Virus record (IMG/VR): IMGVR_UViG_3300028591_000070
Span: 288,001 to 352,000 of that record
Source of the DNA: a virus
Lineage: Duplodnaviria > Caudoviricetes
Direction: 5' to 3' (one strand)
Length of the DNA: 64,000 bases
In this document: piece by piece, positions 18,072 to 25,683 of the stretch
How positions within the stretch are numbered: position 1 is the first letter of the stretch
Layout of the letters: the number at the start of each line of letters is the position of its first letter
Notes under the pieces: generated by a model
The model's input: the letters and a program-made list of their open reading frames with translations, nothing else
The model's database searches: none
Told to the model about the DNA's origin: nothing
Translations under genes and position numbers: made by a program

Positions 18072-19217
18072 TTAGTCCTCTATATTAGCTGAACTAGTAC
18101 AATGGATTTCATCTACTACATTACAAACAATATTTTCAGGTCCGACTTCATCACAATGTGTAAGTTCCAAAATTGTCTTAGTAATTTGTTTATCTTTAAT
18201 TATAGGATTTAAGTCATTCAAATCCTTTAGAATTCGCTGTGTAAGAAGCATTGAATTTAAAGCATTATACTTAAATTCACCTTGCCATTGATTATAATGA
18301 TTATTAAAATCTTCTTCAATATAAGAAGAAATCAACTTTCTTTTTACAGGACTAAAAGATTCATCATCGCCATGTCTTGTTTCATAAGTACGCGATACAT
18401 AATGGATAGTAAAAGACTCAATACAATCTTGTAAGAGAGATACAAAATTTCTATCTAAAGTTTTTAATCCTGTATAAGAAGGAGTCTTTTCAGAGTCATT
18501 GTTACCATTATCTCCAATAGCTAAACCCTGACCATTTTCAAAAATAACATTTTGATATAATTTAATAAATTCATAATTATTAACTGGTTTAGTTGTTCTA
18601 AACATAAACTCACAGTCGGAAATAAAATGGTCAATAAGTCCTTTTCTAAGAGCAAGATCAGTAAAAAATGGAGCATATTCTGGTAATAACTCATCTTTTG
18701 ATAAATTAGATTGATACCAGTTTGCAATATCATTAATATAGTTATATCGTTGTTTATAGTCATTTAGCATAAACTCATCAAATGACCACTTAAATCTTGA
18801 ATTAGAAAATCTTTGAATAGTTTTCCAAATACCCATACCACAAGTATTATGAATACCTCGATATAGGGCATTATTTTGATTTACGATAATATCAAATGGA
18901 GTAACCCATCTACAGTCTTTATGTCTAAAAATAGCAGGAGCGGTTTTCATCCAATTTAAGTTGTACTCCTGCATAAATTGCATTGGGTCCATAATAAACA
19001 TAGGACCAAAAAAACTTGCGCTTCCTAAACAAGAAGCGCTTCCAAAATGTTTATTATTATAAACTTTATCTTGATAAAAAACTGAATGTCCACGTTGAGC
19101 TCCACCATTATTTAATATAACTATTGTATTTGTAGGATCTTTAGCTGCAACTCTAGCTGTTATAGTACCTTTACCTTCGTCGCCATATCCAGCTCCGATT
19201 ACCATATGAACATTCAT
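18072..19217 (-). CDS. adenylosuccinate synthetase-like (PurA superfamily) protein
   Basis: GAGYGDEGKG, NGGAQRGH, TCGMG, FENGQG, TPSYTG, RTYETRHG, LTHCD. Confidence 0.85.
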   Translation of the reverse strand: MNVHMVIGAGYGDEGKGTITARVAAKDPTNTIVILNNGGAQRGHSVFYQDKVYNNKHFGSASCLGSASFFGPMFIMDPMQFMQEYNLNWMKTAPAIFRHKDCRWVTPFDIIVNQNNALYRGIHNTCGMGIWKTIQRFSNSRFKWSFDEFMLNDYKQRYNYINDIANWYQSNLSKDELLPEYAPFFTDLALRKGLIDHFISDCEFMFRTTKPVNNYEFIKLYQNVIFENGQGLAIGDNGNNDSEKTPSYTGLKTLDRNFVSLLQDCIESFTIHYVSRTYETRHGDDESFSPVKRKLISSYIEEDFNNHYNQWQGEFKYNALNSMLLTQRILKDLNDLNPIIKDKQITKTILELTHCDEVGPENIVCNVVDEIHCTSSANIED

Positions 19218-19228
19218 TATATTCTCCT

Positions 19229-19519
19229 TTACCAGGTGATTACATCATCTGATTTATGTTCAATTTTTAAAGATGAGTCATCATTTGTATGAAAGTCAAC
19301 CATACAAACTTTATCATTACCTTCAAGTTTAATAAAAGGTGTAGACTCTGCAGTCCATTGATCTTGCCAAATCTTTACATTTTTTACAGTAATATCATAA
19401 GATAAATCTGGATGCCTTTCTTTAAGATTTGGCCCATAAGTCGGATGATTTTTAGGATCAATATCCCAGTATAAAAAATCTTTTAATTCGGAAAGTTTGC
19501 CTTCAATAATAATTCTCAT
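19229..19519 (-). CDS. hypothetical protein ending in VITW
   Basis: ORF in operon; C-terminus KSDDVITW. Confidence 0.7.
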   Translation of the reverse strand: MRIIIEGKLSELKDFLYWDIDPKNHPTYGPNLKERHPDLSYDITVKNVKIWQDQWTAESTPFIKLEGNDKVCMVDFHTNDDSSLKIEHKSDDVITW

Positions 19520-19527
19520 AGCTGCAC

Positions 19528-19872
19528 CTACCAAGTAATAACATTATCAAGAAGGCCTTCATTAGCAGTTCCTTCTAGATTATACATTTTTTCAAATGTT
19601 TGTTCAGGATAAACAGACCAGTCAGTGTTACTTCTTTTAATGATATAAGAGCCTTCACCTATATGAACTCTTCGTCTGTCTCCCTCTTCATTGATATAAG
19701 ATGCATTAAAATAATTCCATCCATGATAATCGTGTTCATAGTCTATAGAAGCCACTTGAGGTAAAAATTTACGTATTTCTGCGGCTATATTAAAACTATT
19801 TTCTTCATTTAACTGAGGAATGTGAATGCATTCACCCTCATCTGGAATGCGCTTACACTTATAAACTACCAT
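19528..19872 (-). CDS. phage protein, divergent paralogue of 19866-20177, ending in VITW
   Basis: GSYIIK...VYPEQTFEKMY aligns with GWLVK...IYPVKDETFKKVY. Confidence 0.7.
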   Translation of the reverse strand: MVVYKCKRIPDEGECIHIPQLNEENSFNIAAEIRKFLPQVASIDYEHDYHGWNYFNASYINEEGDRRRVHIGEGSYIIKRSNTDWSVYPEQTFEKMYNLEGTANEGLLDNVITW

Positions 19873-20177
19873 GTTATTACCCCTGTTGAGTCATCCATAG
19901 GTTCGTATACTTTTTTAAAAGTCTCATCTTTTACAGGATAAATAGAACCATCAATGCCTTTAACAAGCCAACCATTTTTAGGACAAAACATTTCACTTCC
20001 ATCAGGTTTAGTTATGATAAAAACTTCATCTCCATCAATGTCATTATCCCATTCTACTTCTAGATCTTCCCAATTGTCAATAATCCAATCTGCAATTTCT
20101 TCTGCATTTTCATCGCTACCTGTAAACTGAACAGCTTCAACAATAATTGGCTTTTTACGGAATTTCTGCAAAGTCAT
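19866..20177 (-). CDS. conserved small phage protein ending in VITW
   Basis: KKPIIVEAVQFTG...KGIDGSIYP..DETFKKVYE, a widespread phage family pattern. Confidence 0.75.
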   Translation of the reverse strand: MTLQKFRKKPIIVEAVQFTGSDENAEEIADWIIDNWEDLEVEWDNDIDGDEVFIITKPDGSEMFCPKNGWLVKGIDGSIYPVKDETFKKVYEPMDDSTGVITW

Positions 20178-20224
20178 TCTATTTTCTCCTATTTAATAGA
20201 GGAGCCGAAGCTCCTCTATTTATT

Positions 20225-21148
20225 TTACCAAGTTACAACACCAATAGTTGCATTATCTTCTGTAAGATGTTCTGTTTCTTCACCAGCATTCTCGATAGAA
20301 GATTCAATACAATCCATAATTGTCTTGTTCAAATTGTTAATTGTTGATACCTTGTATCTTTCACCAAGAAGCTGCTTAAATCCTTTCATATTTTTATCTT
20401 CATAAAAATCTTTATCAGGATTTTCGATATACTTCTTGTTGTTTGAATAACAAGTTTCATCATCATCTACAGAAATATGATAAATATCAAACTTCTTAGA
20501 AGCGGCTTTGTAAAGGTCTGGTGTCTTAAGAGAACCAAACTCTTCAGCGCCTTCAGGACGTCCAAAATATTCAACAATTCTGTTTTCCGGCAAATCAGGA
20601 TTTAATGGCTCATCACCCATCGTAATGATGATACCTTTTCGTCCCTGTTTGTCATAAGCATCAAGTTTTGTACGGTAGAGACCAAAGAACCAAGGAGCTG
20701 TATAGCTTTCCCAGTTATTTCCACCACCATGATGCTCCATCCAAATATCATCAAGCTGTTTTGCTACACGGACATCAGACTCAAACTGAGAAACCTGGAG
20801 TGGAGAGTAGTCACATTCAAAGTCACCAACTCCCATAACCATGATTTCAATATCCTTAAACTTCTTATAAAGTTTATCCATCATAGCGCCCAAAGCTGCA
20901 GCAGTTTCCTGACAAGCAGAACCCATAGAACCTGTAACATCCAAAGCGAGAATTACAGGTATTGTATTTGGGTGTTCAGCAGTGTTGATACATTCACGGA
21001 TTTTGTTCTTAGGATTCATAGTCTCCTTCATTGAAGAAGAAGTCCATGCCTGCCCTGAAGTAACACGCAATGTTGAAGCATCAACACTTTTTTTCATCGA
21101 CCTTGAATAAGTTACAAAGTCTGAACTTGAATATGCTCCTCCACCCAT
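20225..21148 (-). CDS. von Willebrand factor A domain protein ending in VVTW
   Basis: MIDAS DVTGSMG, SQFESD, GGGNNWESY, TMGDE. Confidence 0.85.
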   Translation of the reverse strand: MGGGAYSSSDFVTYSRSMKKSVDASTLRVTSGQAWTSSSMKETMNPKNKIRECINTAEHPNTIPVILALDVTGSMGSACQETAAALGAMMDKLYKKFKDIEIMVMGVGDFECDYSPLQVSQFESDVRVAKQLDDIWMEHHGGGNNWESYTAPWFFGLYRTKLDAYDKQGRKGIIITMGDEPLNPDLPENRIVEYFGRPEGAEEFGSLKTPDLYKAASKKFDIYHISVDDDETCYSNNKKYIENPDKDFYEDKNMKGFKQLLGERYKVSTINNLNKTIMDCIESSIENAGEETEHLTEDNATIGVVTW

Positions 21149-21151
21149 GTT

Positions 21152-22033
21152 TTACTCCTCATCGTCGTCAGCTTCTGCTTCAGCTTTTTCTTCTTCAGTT
21201 GCATCTTCTGCACCTGAGAAATCAAGCTCTGAGAACATACTTGCAAATGGATTTTCACCATCTTCACCACCGAAAATAGCAGCGAATGGATTTGCATCTG
21301 TCTTTCCACCAAACATTCCACCCATCATCTGCATCATAACCATCTGACCAAACATGTTTCCACCACCAAATGGACTGCAAGCATCTGCGACGTTTCCGCC
21401 ATTCATCATACCATTCATCATCTGGCTCATGAGCTGCATTTTAAACATCTGGCCAAACATGTTACCATTAGATGCCATACCTTTAAAGGGACACCAGATT
21501 TTAGCATAGAAGAATACTTTTCCCATAAGGATGTGACGTTCTGGAAGAACCTGCTTAAGTTCGTTGTCTTCATAGTCAAGAGCTGTAATAACTCCGTTAT
21601 CAACCTTGATTACAAAGCGTGGTACGCGGCGGTCACCTTTCTGCATAAGAATAATATCACCAACCTGAAGTGTATTTGTTGGAATAAGCCAGAACATGTT
21701 GAACATGTCAAAAGCGAAAGAACCAACATTTGTCAAGCGGTTTTTTTTAGCATCATAAGTTTTGTAACCACTTGGTGTCTTAATTGCAATTTTACCATTC
21801 ATACCGAGCTTGCACTTTCCTGCCTCGATAGGACCAAACATTCCCTTAAACATCTTACCCATGTCACCCATACCAAAATCGTTCATATCTTTATTCTCCT
21901 TGGGATTTTCTTCCCCATTATTATATTCAATTGAGTAGGAAGGTCTGCTGTACCTAGGTATCATAATCATTCCTTCCTCGCCATAATTCATTCTACTAAA
22001 ATCTGCAAACCTTGTCCAATTTGCTACACTCAT
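21152..22033 (-). CDS. hypothetical protein with Met/Gly-rich and acidic tail
   Basis: 293-aa ORF in NAD/vWA operon; low-complexity MMNGMMNGG region. Confidence 0.7.
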   Translation of the reverse strand: MSVANWTRFADFSRMNYGEEGMIMIPRYSRPSYSIEYNNGEENPKENKDMNDFGMGDMGKMFKGMFGPIEAGKCKLGMNGKIAIKTPSGYKTYDAKKNRLTNVGSFAFDMFNMFWLIPTNTLQVGDIILMQKGDRRVPRFVIKVDNGVITALDYEDNELKQVLPERHILMGKVFFYAKIWCPFKGMASNGNMFGQMFKMQLMSQMMNGMMNGGNVADACSPFGGGNMFGQMVMMQMMGGMFGGKTDANPFAAIFGGEDGENPFASMFSELDFSGAEDATEEEKAEAEADDDEE

Positions 22034-22512
22034 AGTAATTTGGCCTTTTTCTTAAGATAAGCTCTTACTAGCATAAGAGTAAATCCAAGAAGGTTTTGTC
22101 CTTGCCACTTTGAAATATCCTGAACCCTTGGGTCATCTTCAGCCATATGAATAGCCCAAATGTTATCAGTAGGATTACATTCAACAAGAATATCATCACC
22201 TGTGTCAAGAAGTTGCTTTGCCAAATCTGGATTTTGTTCAAACTTAGCTTTAAGACCTTCATACACTACAATTTGACGAACACCATTCCAAACAGTGTCG
22301 TTATAATTGCGCACTTTTCTACCAAGACCTTTAATTTCGCTTGGAGAGGTTGAAGCCAGAATTTTCTGAGCAATTTCATCATCTCCAAAAGTCTTAGCTT
22401 TCTGATACATCATCCACTGTTCACTGTTGATAAACTTTACTCCATCAACAGTAAATTCGCTTTTGTACCAGTTACTTAAGAAACCTTTCAAAAAAGGATG
22501 GATTTTAGCCAT
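22030..22512 (-). CDS. NADAR family (YbiA-like) protein
   Basis: FLSNWY, SEQWMMYQKA, KGLGRKV, KAKFEQN, W.GQNLLG..LM.VR. Confidence 0.92.
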   Translation of the reverse strand: MAKIHPFLKGFLSNWYKSEFTVDGVKFINSEQWMMYQKAKTFGDDEIAQKILASTSPSEIKGLGRKVRNYNDTVWNGVRQIVVYEGLKAKFEQNPDLAKQLLDTGDDILVECNPTDNIWAIHMAEDDPRVQDISKWQGQNLLGFTLMLVRAYLKKKAKLL

Positions 22513-22515
22513 ATA

Positions 22516-23325
22516 TTACAACTCCTTGAAATAATCTACCATTCCTGAGTCAGGATGTGGCATCTGAATAATTTCAATCTTAAACTTCATCTTGTTATAG
22601 AGTTTAACAATTCGATTAATTTCATCTACTGTAAAATCAACTTCATCCATTTCTCTACGAATAAAATGGTCCAATCTTTCATATGTGAAGTTTGGAATAT
22701 CCAACTGCTTAGAAAGATTCTGCTCATCTGTTGAGCCACACATTCCATCATCTGGAGCTTTCATAACCAAATCTTCTGGAGCACCCAAAGCCAAACCAAT
22801 CTGTCTTACTTCTGAAACAGTGTAGTCACAAATTGGACCATAACTTCCGGCGCTATCTCCATAGAATGTTGAATATCCAAGGACATCTTCGCTGCGGTTG
22901 CAAGTGTTCAAAACACGACCACCAAGAATTGCTGCAACTCCATAAAGAGTTGTCATTCGCAATCTCGCAGGAGTATTTGTAGAATACTGGCTTGGAATTT
23001 CATTGTTAAGAACTCCATTTGATACATCATCCATAAGGTTGACACAAATGGCTCCTGTAAGAGCTCTATAAGCATCACCAATATTTACAGTCAAATTCTT
23101 AATTCCAAGTAATTCACAAACTCTCTTTGAGTCGGCTATGTCCTTCTGTTCGCCATTAGGCATCATAACTCCAACAACATTTTCCTTACCATAAGCTTTT
23201 ACAGCAAGGTAAGCTACGACTGTTGAGTCTTTTCCACCTGAAATACCAATTACGGCCTTTCCAGATGGATTAGATGCTCTCAAGCCATTTACAATATTTT
23301 CAATAGCAAGATTAGCATCAAACAT
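22516..23325 (-). CDS. nadE: NH3-dependent NAD+ synthetase
   Basis: GISGGKDS, ARLRMTTLY, TCNRSE..GYSTFYGD, KAPDDG. Confidence 0.92.
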   Translation of the reverse strand: MFDANLAIENIVNGLRASNPSGKAVIGISGGKDSTVVAYLAVKAYGKENVVGVMMPNGEQKDIADSKRVCELLGIKNLTVNIGDAYRALTGAICVNLMDDVSNGVLNNEIPSQYSTNTPARLRMTTLYGVAAILGGRVLNTCNRSEDVLGYSTFYGDSAGSYGPICDYTVSEVRQIGLALGAPEDLVMKAPDDGMCGSTDEQNLSKQLDIPNFTYERLDHFIRREMDEVDFTVDEINRIVKLYNKMKFKIEIIQMPHPDSGMVDYFKEL

Positions 23326-23327
23326 AA

Positions 23328-24800
23328 CTACTCAATCTCCTTAGCAAGGCGGGCACGAATATCCATCAAATTCTGGCGGTTGAAATAAACACCATTTACG
23401 AAAACAACCTGCATTTCATCTTTGTGAGCTGCAGCAAGTTTATCATATTCATGTTCAGTCAAACCATCTGTTGCAACATAGTCATTTCCAACTTTTTCAA
23501 CAAAAACCAAACCTTTGTGAGATTTCTTAAGTTTTGCTGTATCAGTTTTTGGATCTTTTACAACTTCAAGTTCGCGGCCGTCCATAAGCTGAATATATGT
23601 AGTTTTCTGTGCAAAACCGAAAGTATCACGAGTTGATACAATCATCTTGTCACCTTCAAAGAAAGCATGGAAACAGAAAGCACCTACACCAAAGAGACAG
23701 TTTGTTGCGGCAAACTTCATTTCTTCAAGCTTTTTCCAGATTTTTTCAACCTGTTTAAGAGTACATCCATCACCGAGGATCATTCCAACATGTGGATTTA
23801 ATACCTTGTAACCCTTCTTGTTTTCAGTACCACCAAATGTTTCCCAAAGAGACTGAACTGTCTGGATAACATTTTCATACTGGTCACCAGAGTCTGGACG
23901 AATAAGGATTTTACCTTCGTGAGCAAGAATTTCTTCTTTAATTTCAGGAAGAACATTCTTTACAATGTCCCAATAATCATAAGTATCGGCAACATAGCTG
24001 AAGTTTTTGTACTGCTTAAGAAGCTTGAGAATAAGCTCTTTTTCAGAAGTGCCAACAGCAACATTTGAACTTACTACAGAGTGTTCAATTGAAACTGCAC
24101 CAATTCCAAGGTGATTGTAAGAACAATCAGCATTGTAGAAATAATCAAGCCAAGAAATAGCAGGAACTGTTGAAGTCTTATTGAATGAAATCAACCAAGA
24201 AGCAGAAGTTTTACAAGCTTCTTCCATACAAGACATTCCGCGCATTCCAAAGTCTGAAGCAGCCATACGAGGGTCAGCACCATCTGTTGTTTTGTCATAC
24301 CACTTCTTTGCGATTTTGTAGTACATATAACCAGCAGTTGCGTCATTACAAGGCTTCCAAACTTCACCCTGCAACCAGCATTCTGTCCACTGAGCCAACC
24401 AAGCAAAATCAGGGTCTGTATTTTCTACAGAAGCGATAGGAACTCCCATATTTACAAGAGAACCTTCTGGAAGAGCTTTAATCTTAAGTGGAAGATAACC
24501 GAGACGATGCAGCTTTTCAATGTGGCTTGTTTCATAGTTTCCTGGGCCAAGCTGAAGATTCATCTTCTTTTCATAATCTGCGATTACTTCAGAAGTAGGC
24601 TTAGCAAACCAAGCATCTGCATTTTCTTTGAAATTTTTAATAAAGGCTTGAATACCGAAAACAACAACTTTCTGCTGTTTTTCGAACATAGATTTGCGGG
24701 GAACAAGATAACTAACGAGTTTAGTCATCCCTTTTGGATAAACGTCAACATGACAGTTTTTGTAGGTGTCAGCTACATCAGGCATCATAAAATGAAACAT
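23328..24800 (-). CDS. nicotinamide/nicotinate phosphoribosyltransferase family (NAMPT/Namat-like)
   Basis: DTYK..H, DFGMRG, EHSV, DTYDYW, IRPDSGD, GVGA, KDPKTD, KKSHKG. Confidence 0.9.
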   Translation of the reverse strand: MFHFMMPDVADTYKNCHVDVYPKGMTKLVSYLVPRKSMFEKQQKVVVFGIQAFIKNFKENADAWFAKPTSEVIADYEKKMNLQLGPGNYETSHIEKLHRLGYLPLKIKALPEGSLVNMGVPIASVENTDPDFAWLAQWTECWLQGEVWKPCNDATAGYMYYKIAKKWYDKTTDGADPRMAASDFGMRGMSCMEEACKTSASWLISFNKTSTVPAISWLDYFYNADCSYNHLGIGAVSIEHSVVSSNVAVGTSEKELILKLLKQYKNFSYVADTYDYWDIVKNVLPEIKEEILAHEGKILIRPDSGDQYENVIQTVQSLWETFGGTENKKGYKVLNPHVGMILGDGCTLKQVEKIWKKLEEMKFAATNCLFGVGAFCFHAFFEGDKMIVSTRDTFGFAQKTTYIQLMDGRELEVVKDPKTDTAKLKKSHKGLVFVEKVGNDYVATDGLTEHEYDKLAAAHKDEMQVVFVNGVYFNRQNLMDIRARLAKEIE

Positions 24801-24809
24801 AATTTTTTA

Positions 24810-24902
24810 TCTCCTATATAAGTCGAATATGTTTTTTGATAGTCACTAAGAACTGTGCCACCTAATTATGGTTATTCTTAGCAACATCTAAATTATATTA
24901 AC
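24810..24902 (-). promoter_or_regulatory. GTTAATAT promoter plus structured 5' leader, copy A
   Basis: stem gttgctaagaa/ttcttagtgac enclosing TAACCATAA..GTGG, then TCGACTTATATAGGAGA; similar to 26555-26657. Confidence 0.6.
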
Positions 24903-25683
24903 AGACTTCTACGAAGTCGTTAGTACCACGGTAAATTGAATTTGTAGTAAATACTTTTGTAATTCCAGCTTCTTTAAGAGCATCAATATCAATTACATTT
25001 TCGCAGTGTGAAATGTAGAGATATACATCTTTTGCTCCAAGCTTTTTAAGCTCAATAGCTGAATATTTGAAAGTACCACCTTTTGAACAAATATCATCAA
25101 TGATGAGAATGTTCTTATCTTTGATAGCTTCTGGATTTCCCTTAATTTCAAGACCAAGGATTTTTCCGCTGCGCCAATCACGAGTTTTTTCACCAACTAC
25201 GATTTCATAATTTTCTTTAACTATATCCAAAGTAGAATAGCGTTTACAAGCACCAGCATCTGGGAACATAATTGTCTCAACATCAAGTGGAAGTTCTTTC
25301 AAGAAGTTTTCAATTGTCTGAAGTCCATTGTCCTGAATATTATCGATAAGAGCGCGAGAAACATCTGAGTGTGCATTATCAACAATAACAGCCTTAAAAT
25401 CCATTGCATTTAAAACTTTTGCAAAAGACTTAAGAGTAAATACTTCATCTGGATTTTTAACACGATCCATTCGTGCATTTGGAATATAAGGCATCTCCAA
25501 GAAAAGATTGCAGCCTTTATAAAAATCAGCAATACATTGAAGAGTGAAAAGTTCACTCATAGAGTCAAACAACCAAGTTACAGTTATCTGCTGATTATTT
25601 TTAATCTTAGGGTCAAGTCGAAAAAGTGGAGTTCCATCAGGAAAGTTTTCAACTTTAATTTTAATGTCATTTACTTTAATCAA
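24898..25683 (-). CDS. ribose-phosphate pyrophosphokinase-like (Prs/Adps-like)
   Basis: FPDG, MPYIPNARMDR, HSDV, FPDAGA, IIDDICSKGGTF. Confidence 0.9.
   Translation of the reverse strand: MIKVNDIKIKVENFPDGTPLFRLDPKIKNNQQITVTWLFDSMSELFTLQCIADFYKGCNLFLEMPYIPNARMDRVKNPDEVFTLKSFAKVLNAMDFKAVIVDNAHSDVSRALIDNIQDNGLQTIENFLKELPLDVETIMFPDAGACKRYSTLDIVKENYEIVVGEKTRDWRSGKILGLEIKGNPEAIKDKNILIIDDICSKGGTFKYSAIELKKLGAKDVYLYISHCENVIDIDALKEAGITKVFTTNSIYRGTNDFVEVC

What the first reader, a model, noticed from the sequence alone, without database searches (positions are those of the whole stretch)
19229..21148. Four consecutive proteins share the C-terminal tetrapeptide V-[IV]-T-W, directly upstream of a PurA-like ligase
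Seen: the vWA protein ends ATIGVVTW*, and the next three end STGVITW*, LDNVITW* and SDDVITW*, each after a short acidic/polar linker. Codons differ (gtt gta act tgg taa; gta ata aca tgg tag; gtt att act tgg tag; gta atc acc tgg taa), so conservation is at the protein level rather than a recent DNA duplication. The four bodies belong to about three unrelated families, and no other ORF in the track ends this way. Inference: a transferable C-terminal docking tag, degron or ligation handle recruiting different cargos to one partner. The adjacent PurA-like enzyme (18072-19217) or the Met-rich protein (21152-22033) are the obvious candidates.
Basis: partly seen in the sequence, partly recalled or inferred. 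Interest (0 to 1): 0.85.

Follow-up and report, generated by a model that had tools for sequence, protein, structure and literature searches.

The report
Shared C-terminal docking tail in phage module
Four neighbouring proteins of a 386-kb phage carry the same short tail ending in tryptophan; comparison with hundreds of related phages shows a conserved, add-on peptide, most likely plugging different proteins into one partner within an unstudied vWA / PurA-like enzyme module.

Summary
Four consecutive minus-strand genes end in V-[IV]-T-W, and no other reading frame of the 385,934-bp phage genome does.

The tail belongs first to the vWA protein:
- All 120 closest homologues end in W, with consensus G-x-I-[ST]-W after a variable polar/acidic linker.
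- AlphaFold2 models that linker as disordered.
- About 40% of the wider vWA family ends in a related [ILV]-x-[W/F/L].

In the window's lineage, 1-4 extra small proteins next to the vWA gene carry the same tail. Most are PGDYG-like barrels and some are unrelated. Their relatives elsewhere lack it: a paralogue in this genome, SPP1 gp5 and mycobacteriophage Saal gp94. The variable tail positions match within a genome.

The genes form a conserved module: Met-rich protein (elsewhere a J-domain pseudokinase), vWA, then a remodelled PurA-like enzyme.

Best reading: a transferable C-terminal docking peptide. The receptor is unresolved. I favour the PurA-like enzyme or the vWA itself, and gene distribution argues against the Met-rich protein. 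The single co-folding job gave no answer.

A ligation handle is chemically unlikely. A degron is not excluded.

This scan has met the module before on other DNA. The tail had not been noted.

The parts
21152..22033 (-). Met/Gly/Phe-rich protein (293 aa), first gene of the module. It has a disordered N-terminus, tandem small beta-barrels (about residues 70-181), a Met-rich low-complexity region, a conserved NPFxxMF-type motif and an acidic C-terminus.
   Evidence: No Pfam, PHROG or NCBIfam hit. Found directly upstream of the vWA gene in 75 of 83 related loci. AF2 gives pLDDT 84-92 for residues about 70-180. The best structural matches are Tudor/SH3/KOW-like barrels at Z about 6, which is generic. 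Alignment.
20225..21148 (-). vWA/MIDAS protein (307 aa). It has an invariant N-terminus (MGGG..), a D-x-T-G-S metal site, a C-terminal helix, a disordered linker (293-302) and the tail G-V-V-T-W.
   Evidence: phrog_2971 at 3.9e-41. AF2 pLDDT 89, pTM 0.88, with residues 293-307 below 50. Foldseek hits integrin beta-I domains and pilus adhesin vWA, E 6.6e-7. 6859 homologues; the best 120 all end in W.
20228..20242 (-). Codons of the vWA tail G-V-V-T-W.
   Evidence: Consensus of 63 unique W-clade vWA proteins: N-E-N-G-E-I-[ST]-W.
20195..20220 (.). 11-bp-stem palindromic hairpin between the vWA gene and the first small gene.
   Evidence: On the coding (minus) strand it is followed by AAATAGGAG (a ribosome-binding site), not by a T run. 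Its role was not tested.
19866..20177 (-). Small PGDYG-like beta-barrel protein (103 aa) with an appended linker and the tail ..DDSTGVITW.
   Evidence: phrog_419 at 2.9e-19 and four related PHROGs. All 27 close homologues with a complete end keep the tail; the distant P0146 and P0147 (PF14083) lack it. Its paralogue at G000 161463-161717 ends ..QTYEVVE without a tail. 432 cultured-phage homologues match only up to residues 91-99.
19528..19872 (-). Second, divergent PGDYG-like protein (114 aa) with the tail ..GLLDNVITW. Its ATG overlaps the previous gene's ..ACA TGG TAG by 7 nt.
   Evidence: Linked to the 103-aa family through intermediates and aligned in A5. The orthologue in L092 keeps ..DNVITW. 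Overlap seen.
19229..19519 (-). Third small protein (96 aa from ATG 19519; the ORF is open from TTG 19534), unrelated in sequence, with the tail ..KSDDVITW.
   Evidence: No family hit. The orthologue in L092 is 76% identical and ends ..DGIISW.
18072..19217 (-). Remodelled PurA-like (adenylosuccinate-synthetase-fold) enzyme (381 aa), last gene of the module.
   Evidence: PF00709 at 2.7e-10 over residues 5-136 only. phrog_1211 at 1.9e-23. It falls far below all NCBIfam PurA/PurZ cut-offs. The family profile matches solved PurA structures over about 290 positions, E 1.6e-21. It lies next to the vWA gene in 78 of 83 and 75 of 80 related loci.

Best explanation
The tail is a short linear docking motif. 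After a flexible polar/acidic linker come G-x-[IV]-[ST/x]-W and the free C-terminus.

It is an original feature of the vWA subunit of a conserved phage module: Met-rich protein or J-domain pseudokinase, then vWA, then a PurA-like enzyme. I infer that it tethers the vWA protein to a binding pocket on a constant partner, probably by adding a short beta-strand whose alternate side chains (-1 W, -3 I/V, -5 G) face one way. I rank the candidates: the PurA-like enzyme first, the vWA domain itself (head-to-tail or at its metal-site face) second, and a host or other phage protein third.

In the lineage of this window the same peptide has been grafted onto 1-4 small proteins encoded between the vWA and PurA-like genes. 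Most are PGDYG-like barrels; at least three are unrelated folds. These would use, or compete for, the same pocket as extra adaptors, clients or regulators.

Shown here: the motif, its conservation, its disorder, its add-on nature, its restriction to the module, and its within-genome concordance.

Inferred: that it binds anything, which protein it binds, and what the consequence is.
For: 1. Specificity. There are only four occurrences in six frames of the 386-kb genome, and they are consecutive.
2. Deep conservation on vWA. All 120 of the 120 best homologues (55-92% identical) end in W. In IMG/VR and metagenome loci, 68 of 74 end [IVLM]-x-W and the rest end GIAWV or GIAWA. Among 122 full-length 50%-cluster representatives, 49 end [ILV]-x-[WFLMIV], against 5.6% at internal positions.
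3. Tethered-peptide anatomy. The linker varies in length and sequence. AF2 gives pLDDT below 50 for residues 293-307 while the domain scores 89.
4. Add-on to unrelated bodies, only in the module. Examples: L001 AIIW; L003 GITW and VITW; L005 GGIIW; L008 EITW; L031 and L045 [TC]ITW; L090 KISW and TISW; L091 KISW; L092 four in a row. Tail-bearing genes other than the module's vWA, PurA-like and Met-rich genes number 8 of 278 within three genes of the vWA gene, against 2 of 1133 beyond (odds ratio 16.8, p 6e-5).
5. Relatives outside the module lack the tail: the genome's own paralogue, P0146 and P0147, SPP1 gp5 and Saal gp94. The 30 listed of 432 cultured-phage matches (sampled across the ranking) stop at query residues 91-99.
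6. vWA and accessory tails share one consensus. Their variable positions agree within genomes: 0.53 against 0.19 when shuffled.
7. Synonymous codons differ between the four tails, so selection acts on the protein.
8. The receptor should be a constant component. vWA and PurA-like are together in 78 of 83 and 75 of 80 loci, while the upstream partner switches between the Met-rich protein and a J-domain kinase-like protein.
Against: - No binding has been shown.
- Tail-less versions of the full module exist: Vibrio phage pv27, Rhizobium phage RHph_TM30 and Mycobacterium phage Cali. The tail is therefore not essential to the module.
- In some lineages 1-11 residues follow the motif (GIAWV, GVVLFD, GVVRFDKKK..). 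A free carboxylate on the aromatic residue is therefore not always needed.
- Covariation and clade-contrast analyses did not single out a receptor.
- The genomes in the concordance test are not independent. Tail copying at gene acquisition would also give concordance.
Confidence: 0.55

Rival explanations
1. Degron. The hydrophobic C-terminal peptide is read by a host or phage protease (ClpXP/ClpAP/Lon-type C-terminal recognition), so that the vWA protein and its small neighbours are turned over together.
For: An exposed, disordered C-terminus ending in non-polar residues is the general format of C-terminal degrons (established knowledge: ssrA ..LAA, MuA). Several co-expressed proteins share it.
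Against: The conserved G(-5)/I(-3)/W(-1) alternation, the acidic linker and the W/F/L clade-specific switches look like co-evolution with a dedicated pocket, not a generic protease signal spanning hosts as different as those of these phages. Known C-terminal degrons do not end in I-T-W (from memory). Variants with residues added after the aromatic persist.
Confidence: 0.12
2. Targeting signal. The tail sends the proteins to a compartment or assembly, for example loading into the capsid as encapsulin cargo peptides do, or delivery to another phage structure.
For: It is a short C-terminal peptide shared by unrelated cargos on flexible linkers. That is the format of encapsulin cargo-loading peptides (established knowledge). 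The genome is a 386-kb phage with many unknown structures.
Against: The module sits among NAD-salvage and nucleotide genes on the same strand, not among structural genes. Earlier notes from this scan (not checked here) report versions of the module in cellular genomes. No virion data are available.
Confidence: 0.08
3. Substrate or ligation handle. The PurA-like enzyme covalently modifies the tail, or joins it to something.
For: The genes are adjacent and closely spaced (gaps or overlaps of a few to about 50 nt), next to a ligase-fold enzyme whose amino-acid pocket is remodelled.
Against: PurA-type chemistry phosphorylates a purine 6-oxo group and displaces it with a free amine (established). 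The tail offers only a carboxylate and an indole. Tail-less modules keep the enzyme. If any end of the vWA protein is a substrate, the near-invariant N-terminal Met-Gly (132 of 150 representatives) is the better candidate. An earlier check in this scan priced that idea at 14/100.
Confidence: 0.03
4. Cis-acting or incidental feature. The tail packs back on each protein, or it is a by-product of gene overlap or cassette joints (..A TGG TAG = ATG GTA G).
For: One junction does use ..ACA TGG TAG as the next gene's ATG. Several relatives begin MV.. right after a ..W stop.
Against: Three of the four tails in the window do not overlap a start codon. vWA tails are conserved where the next gene is 7-100 nt away. 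The tail is disordered in the vWA monomer model. At least four unrelated folds cannot share one cis pocket. G(-5) and I(-3) are not explained by an overlap.
Confidence: 0.07

Closest known systems
Acidic C-terminal tails ending in an aromatic residue that dock on a hub: E. coli SSB (..DDDIPF) and phage T7 gp2.5 and gp4, which bind T7 DNA polymerase (recalled from established literature, not tested here)
   Same: A disordered acidic/polar tether, a short hydrophobic motif whose last residue is aromatic, and a free C-terminus. In T7, two different phage proteins share the format to reach one partner.
   Different: The sequence is different (G-x-I-[ST]-W). There is no replication context, since the carriers are a vWA adaptor and PGDYG-like barrels. 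The partner is unknown. Up to five carriers are encoded side by side.
Sliding-clamp-binding C-terminal peptides of T4-type phages (gp43, gp33, gp55 on gp45) and bacterial QL[SD]LF motifs (recalled)
   Same: Several unrelated proteins carry a similar terminal hydrophobic peptide to share one ring-shaped hub.
   Different: The motif does not match the clamp consensus. Nothing links the module to replication or transcription.
Class II PDZ ligands (hydrophobic-x-hydrophobic-COOH) and other beta-strand-addition peptides
   Same: The same alternating pattern ending at the C-terminus, consistent with strand addition.
   Different: No PDZ domain was detected in this phage genome. Lineages with residues added after the aromatic do not fit strict carboxylate recognition.
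MoxR AAA+/vWA adaptor pairs (CbbQ-CbbO, NorQ-NorD, RavA-ViaA, BchI-BchD) and TerY-P triads (vWA + kinase + phosphatase)
   Same: A vWA/MIDAS protein acts as an adaptor encoded next to an NTP-using partner. The wider family of this module has a kinase-like partner.
   Different: The NTPase is a PurA-fold enzyme, not AAA+. There is no phosphatase. The kinase-like partner carries a J-domain, and its HRD position reads HNG in the consensus. In this phage an unrelated Met-rich protein replaces it.
Integrin alpha-I / beta-I 'internal ligand' (recalled): an acidic residue just after the last helix of a vWA-type domain binds the neighbouring MIDAS
   Same: The tail follows directly on the C-terminal helix of a domain whose best structural matches are integrin beta-I domains. 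It carries acidic residues before the hydrophobic motif.
   Different: This is purely an analogy. No evidence here shows that the tail reaches a metal site.
J-domain pseudokinase / vWA / PurA-like module noted earlier in this scan on other genomes
   Same: Same vWA and PurA-like families, same gene order and same frequent NAD-gene neighbourhood.
   Different: Those notes did not report the C-terminal motif, its spread to accessory proteins, or the Met-rich substitute for the pseudokinase.

Membership tests
vWA / MIDAS domain proteins | Rossmann-like vWA fold | tested here: met
   AF2 model pLDDT 89. Foldseek top hits are integrin beta-I domains and the SpaC adhesin vWA: E 6.6e-7 to 1e-5, prob 1.00, TM about 0.45. 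Pfam vWA models gave no hit at E <= 0.01.
vWA / MIDAS domain proteins | MIDAS motif D-x-S-x-S plus downstream Thr and Asp | tested here: met
   D70-V-T72-G73-S74 is invariant in 74 sequences (a D-x-T-x-S variant), with invariant T176 and D179. Metal binding was not tested.
Adenylosuccinate synthetase PurA (PF00709, TIGR00184) | PurA fold with P-loop GDEGKG, GH and QG motifs | tested here: met
   PF00709 scores 40 bits (cut-off 27) over residues 5-136. The family profile matches solved PurA over about 290 positions at E 1.6e-21, aligning GDEGKG, GG..GH, E.GQG and TR.G.G.
Adenylosuccinate synthetase PurA (PF00709, TIGR00184) | Equivalog-level similarity including the aspartate-binding loop (G-x-T-T-G-R-x-R-R) | tested here: not met
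   NCBIfam scores are 18-36 bits against cut-offs of 368-700. The profile match to PurA ends near position 290, before that loop. The family consensus there reads ..TNxYNxxQGxFRYG...
PurZ (2-aminoadenine pathway) | NF038379 equivalog score | tested here: not met
   18.4 bits against a cut-off of 300. The PHROG label '2-aminooxy adenylosuccinate synthetase' is a family name only.
PGDYG-like small barrels (PF14083 and PHROGs 419/1810/4502) | N-terminal KKP-x-x-VEA-x-Q strand and GD[WY]-[LI]-[VI]-K-G..G..YP....F...Y core | tested here: met
   PHROG hits from 2.9e-19 to 5.5e-7. Both motifs are present in A5. The distant homologue P0147 carries PF14083. SPP1 gp5 and Saal gp94 align. Pfam itself gave no hit for the window proteins at E <= 0.01.
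C-terminal docking short linear motifs (SSB-Ct / T7 gp2.5 type) | Conserved terminal motif on a disordered, variable linker | tested here: met
C-terminal docking short linear motifs (SSB-Ct / T7 gp2.5 type) | Motif portable between unrelated proteins | tested here: met
   At least four sequence-unrelated bodies carry it, and their relatives outside the module lack it.
C-terminal docking short linear motifs (SSB-Ct / T7 gp2.5 type) | Demonstrated binding to a defined pocket on a partner | not testable with these tools
   This needs peptide-binding experiments or reliable co-folding.
PDZ-ligand system | A PDZ domain encoded with the ligands | tested here: not met
   PF13180 and PF00595 give no match at E <= 0.1 in the 386-kb genome, which CheckV rates complete; the controls were positive. 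A host PDZ protein is not excluded.
J-domain pseudokinase / vWA / PurA-like module | J-domain kinase-like gene upstream of the vWA gene | tested here: not met
   There is no DnaJ or Pkinase match anywhere in this genome. A Met-rich protein unrelated to the pseudokinase occupies the position (hhalign probability 0.2). The vWA and PurA-like members are present, so this is a variant of the module.

The most novel reading that the evidence does not exclude
The tail is the plug of a modular, adaptor-swapping enzyme complex. A remodelled PurA-fold, GTP-dependent ligase has one socket that accepts the C-terminal G-x-I-x-W peptide. The vWA protein and a changeable set of small ligand-binding barrels plug into that socket, so the phage can re-aim or regulate one unknown nucleotide reaction by adding or swapping small tagged genes. 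The vWA tail hangs from the helix that controls its metal site in integrin-type domains. The small barrels are PGDYG-like and others. The unknown reaction is possibly tied to NAD/ADP-ribose conflicts.
Probability: 0.2. Interest if true: 0.8.

Novelty: new variant of a known kind. Interest (0 to 1): 0.62.

Why it matters
Earlier notes of this scan also place it in many bacteria. I found no paper describing it, and its function is unknown.

A conserved, portable docking peptide gives a direct experimental handle. A 10-residue peptide and its W-to-A control can fish out the receptor. That would define the architecture of the complex and show what the accessory proteins do.

It would also be a natural example of a phage widening a protein complex by grafting one short tag onto neighbouring genes. 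That is of interest for how short linear motifs evolve in viruses, and as a possible orthogonal tagging pair.

Tried and rejected
1. Co-folding. Chains were PurA-like, vWA 1-292, Met-rich 58-190 and the 103-aa protein as partner. Verdict: no answer (0.25, below the 0.32 mark). This is not evidence either way.

2. Mutual information between tail positions and columns of the vWA core or the PurA-like protein, on 71 non-redundant pairs. Both proteins gave similar, phylogeny-dominated values, so no receptor stood out.

3. Contrast of tail-bearing clades with tail-less Met-rich-type loci, looking for shared indels or residues. One column was found in each protein, which is uninformative; only five tail-less loci were available.

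4. Fused forms among longer vWA homologues. These were one J-domain/kinase-like/vWA fusion, one intein-containing vWA and one unexplained extension. None was fused to the PurA-like or PGDYG domains.

5. Literature searches on vWA + PurA + phage, on jumbo-phage reviews and on C-terminal tryptophan. No description of the module or the motif was found.

6. A direct DNA or protein pattern scan of IMG/VR with the single window vWA protein failed; it needed the alignment. The scan with the PGDYG alignment only re-found known loci.

7. ESM Atlas look-ups for the 96-aa protein and the Met-rich domain gave nothing usable.

8. Structural search with the Met-rich model gave only generic Tudor/SH3/KOW-like barrels at Z about 6. 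No family was assigned.

9. The idea that ..T-W-stop is forced by an overlapping ATG was rejected, because only one of the four junctions overlaps.
Full report
**What is there**

The window lies at 288001-352000 of a single 385,934-bp phage contig with 31.7% G+C. On the minus strand, close-packed genes read in this order:
- a NAD-salvage block (PRPP-synthetase-like, Nampt-like, NadE, NADAR);
- a 293-aa Met/Gly/Phe-rich protein (21152-22033);
- a 307-aa vWA protein (20225-21148);
- three small proteins (19866-20177, 19528-19872, 19229-19519/19534);
- a 381-aa PurA-like protein (18072-19217).

The vWA protein and the three small proteins end in GVVTW, GVITW, NVITW and DVITW. A six-frame scan finds [VI][VI]TW-stop nowhere else in the window or in the whole genome. 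The four tails use different synonymous codons.

**The tail belongs first to the vWA protein**

The vWA protein has 6859 detectable homologues. The best 120 (55-92% identical) all end in W, with consensus G-x-[IV]-x-W after a linker of variable length and sequence.

In 83 related loci from metagenomes and IMG/VR, 68 of 74 vWA proteins end [IVLM]-x-W. The others end GIAWV or GIAWA.

With a 74-sequence alignment, AlphaFold2 models a confident vWA domain (pLDDT 89, pTM 0.88). Residues 293-307, the linker and tail that follow the last helix, score below 50. The fold matches integrin beta-I domains and pilus-adhesin vWA domains.

At greater distance, among 150 representatives of 50%-identity clusters, W gives way to F or L (..GLVRF..GLIEL..GIITF). 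Of 122 full-length representatives, 49 end [ILV]-x-[WFLMIV], against 5.6% at internal positions. In a few lineages the motif is followed by 1-11 residues. In others it is absent: Vibrio phage pv27, Rhizobium phage RHph_TM30 and Mycobacterium phage Cali.

**The tail has been grafted onto neighbours**

In relatives of the window, extra small genes beside the vWA gene carry the same tail:

| Locus | Accessory tails |
|---|---|
| L001 | AIIW |
| L003 / L007 | GITW and VITW |
| L005 | GGIIW (downstream of the PurA-like gene) |
| L008 / L009 | EITW |
| L029, L031, L045 | [VTC]ITW (upstream of the Met-rich gene) |
| L090 | KISW and TISW |
| L091 | KISW |
| L092 | YITW, VITW, VITW, IISW after a vWA ending VVAW |

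Excluding the module's vWA, PurA-like and Met-rich genes, tail-bearing genes number 8 of 278 within three genes of the vWA gene, against 2 of 1133 further away (odds ratio 16.8, p 6e-5).

Most carriers, including the window's 103-aa and 114-aa proteins, belong to one PGDYG-like family of small barrels. The 96-aa protein, a 106-aa protein (L005), a 146-aa protein (L008) and an 86-aa protein (L090) are unrelated in sequence.

The family normally ends two to four residues after its ..F...Y-E core. That holds for the paralogue in this same genome (161463-161717..QTYEVVE), for SPP1 gp5 and for mycobacteriophage Saal gp94. In the 30 listed of 432 cultured-phage records (sampled across the ranking) the match stops at query residues 91-99 of 103.

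The tail is therefore an 8-12-residue addition, found only on copies embedded in the module. The vWA and accessory tails give the same logo, with G at -5, I at -3, S/T at -2 and W at -1. The variable positions -4 and -2 agree within a genome more than between genomes (0.53 against 0.19). The caveat is that several of the eleven genomes are related.

**The module**

Met-rich, vWA and PurA-like genes occur together in about 75 of 83 loci. In the wider family the vWA/PurA-like pair persists in 75 of 80 loci. There the upstream gene is a protein of about 340 aa with a J-domain (HPD) and a kinase-like domain, whose HRD position reads HNG in the consensus. One metagenomic protein fuses this partner to the vWA domain.

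The Met-rich protein is unrelated to the pseudokinase. This genome has no detectable J-domain, protein-kinase or PDZ domain. The Met-rich protein has tandem small beta-barrels, with only generic Tudor/SH3/KOW-like matches at Z about 6. These are followed by a Met-rich low-complexity region, a conserved NPFxGMFDF-type motif and an acidic end.

The PurA-like enzyme keeps the PurA fold and the N-terminal catalytic motifs, but it is far below every PurA or PurZ equivalog threshold. Its profile match to PurA ends before the aspartate-binding loop.

NAD-salvage genes lie within 6-7 kb in 24 of 163 loci, and also beside the module in Rhizobium phage RHph_TM30.

Earlier notes of this scan describe the J-pseudokinase / vWA / PurA-like module on other genomes as widespread and not found in the literature. 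None mentions the C-terminal motif. I also found no paper on either.

**How it most likely works**

The anatomy is that of a C-terminal docking peptide:
- a conserved short hydrophobic motif with an alternating pattern;
- placement at the end of a disordered acidic or polar tether;
- portability between unrelated bodies;
- agreement within genomes.

This is the principle used by the SSB tail and by the acidic, Phe-terminated tails of T7 gp2.5 and gp4 (recalled knowledge).

I infer that the vWA protein uses the tail to hold on to a constant partner, and that the small proteins of this lineage use or compete for the same site.

Related tails occur with either upstream partner, and Met-rich loci exist without tails. 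The receptor is therefore more likely a constant component. I rank the PurA-like enzyme first, then the vWA domain itself; a host protein remains possible.

The tail hangs from the C-terminal helix, which in integrin-type domains is coupled to the metal site. Docking could therefore also tune the vWA site, but that is only an analogy.

None of these binding steps is shown.

**Rivals**

- *Degron.* It fits the exposed non-polar end. It does not fit the conserved G/I/W register or the clade-specific switches.
- *Targeting signal.* It fits the format but not the metabolic gene context.
- *Ligation handle.* It conflicts with PurA chemistry, which needs an amine. The near-invariant N-terminal Met-Gly of the vWA protein (132 of 150 representatives) would be a better candidate. 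An earlier check in this scan priced that idea low.
- *By-product of overlapping start codons.* It is excluded for three of the four junctions.

**What failed**

The only co-folding job returned no answer. Covariation and clade contrasts could not name the receptor.

**Verdict**

The feature is real, strongly non-random and evolutionarily conserved. It is a new sequence variant of a known principle, the shared C-terminal docking peptide, set inside an unstudied phage module. It offers a cheap experimental route to that module's architecture.

Noticed in passing
window 21152-22033 (-); A4: In this phage clade a Met/Gly/Phe-rich protein sits where the wider family has a J-domain kinase-like protein. 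It has tandem small beta-barrels and a conserved near-C-terminal NPFxGMFDF-type motif followed by an acidic end. The two are not homologous (hhalign probability 0.2). The pseudokinases have their own conserved C-terminal ..[ST]-D-I-Y.. motif, so both upstream partners end in an acidic-aromatic short motif that could be the ligand of the vWA metal site.
   Followed up: partly
window 20225-21148 (-), residues 1-15; P0148-P0296: The vWA N-terminus M-G-x-G-x-[WYF] is nearly invariant: 132 of 150 cluster representatives start MG, and most exceptions are truncated. Its role is unknown.
   Followed up: partly
window 20195-20220: A perfect 11-bp-stem hairpin lies between the vWA stop codon and the ribosome-binding site of the first small gene. 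It may set different expression levels for the vWA and accessory genes.
   Followed up: no
window 19866-19872: A 7-nt overlap in which ..ACA TGG TAG (T-W-stop) contains the ATG GTA of the next gene. Several relatives also start MV.. immediately after a ..W stop. This may be a recurrent cassette joint for inserting tagged genes.
   Followed up: partly
G000:C1:136428-136730 (+), outside the window: An ORF ends ..KVYDNVIW, close to the tail motif but lacking G(-5) and S/T(-2). It could be a fifth carrier or chance.
   Followed up: no
window 19430-19510 (-) and L088:2585-2677: The N-terminal part of the 96-aa protein (..W-D-I-D-P-K-N-H-P-T-Y-G-P) resembles the C-terminal part of Rhizobium phage RHph_TM30 gp015. 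That gene lies two genes upstream of that phage's tail-less module. Pairwise E is 5e-6, over only 26 residues.
   Followed up: partly
P0298, P0299: One vWA homologue carries a Hint/intein insertion. Another metagenomic ORF fuses the J-domain, the kinase-like domain and the N-terminal part of the vWA domain.
   Followed up: partly
window 22030-25683 (-); L001, L003, L088, L090-L092: NAD-salvage and ADP-ribose genes (NADAR, NadE, Nampt-like, PRPP-synthetase-like, PncA, PARG) repeatedly flank the module: 24 of 163 loci by BLAST, plus Rhizobium phage RHph_TM30.
   Followed up: partly
L005:577-1863 (-): An IS605 OrfB / Cas12f-like TnpB gene lies about 6 kb upstream of the module in a 406-kb relative.
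   Followed up: no
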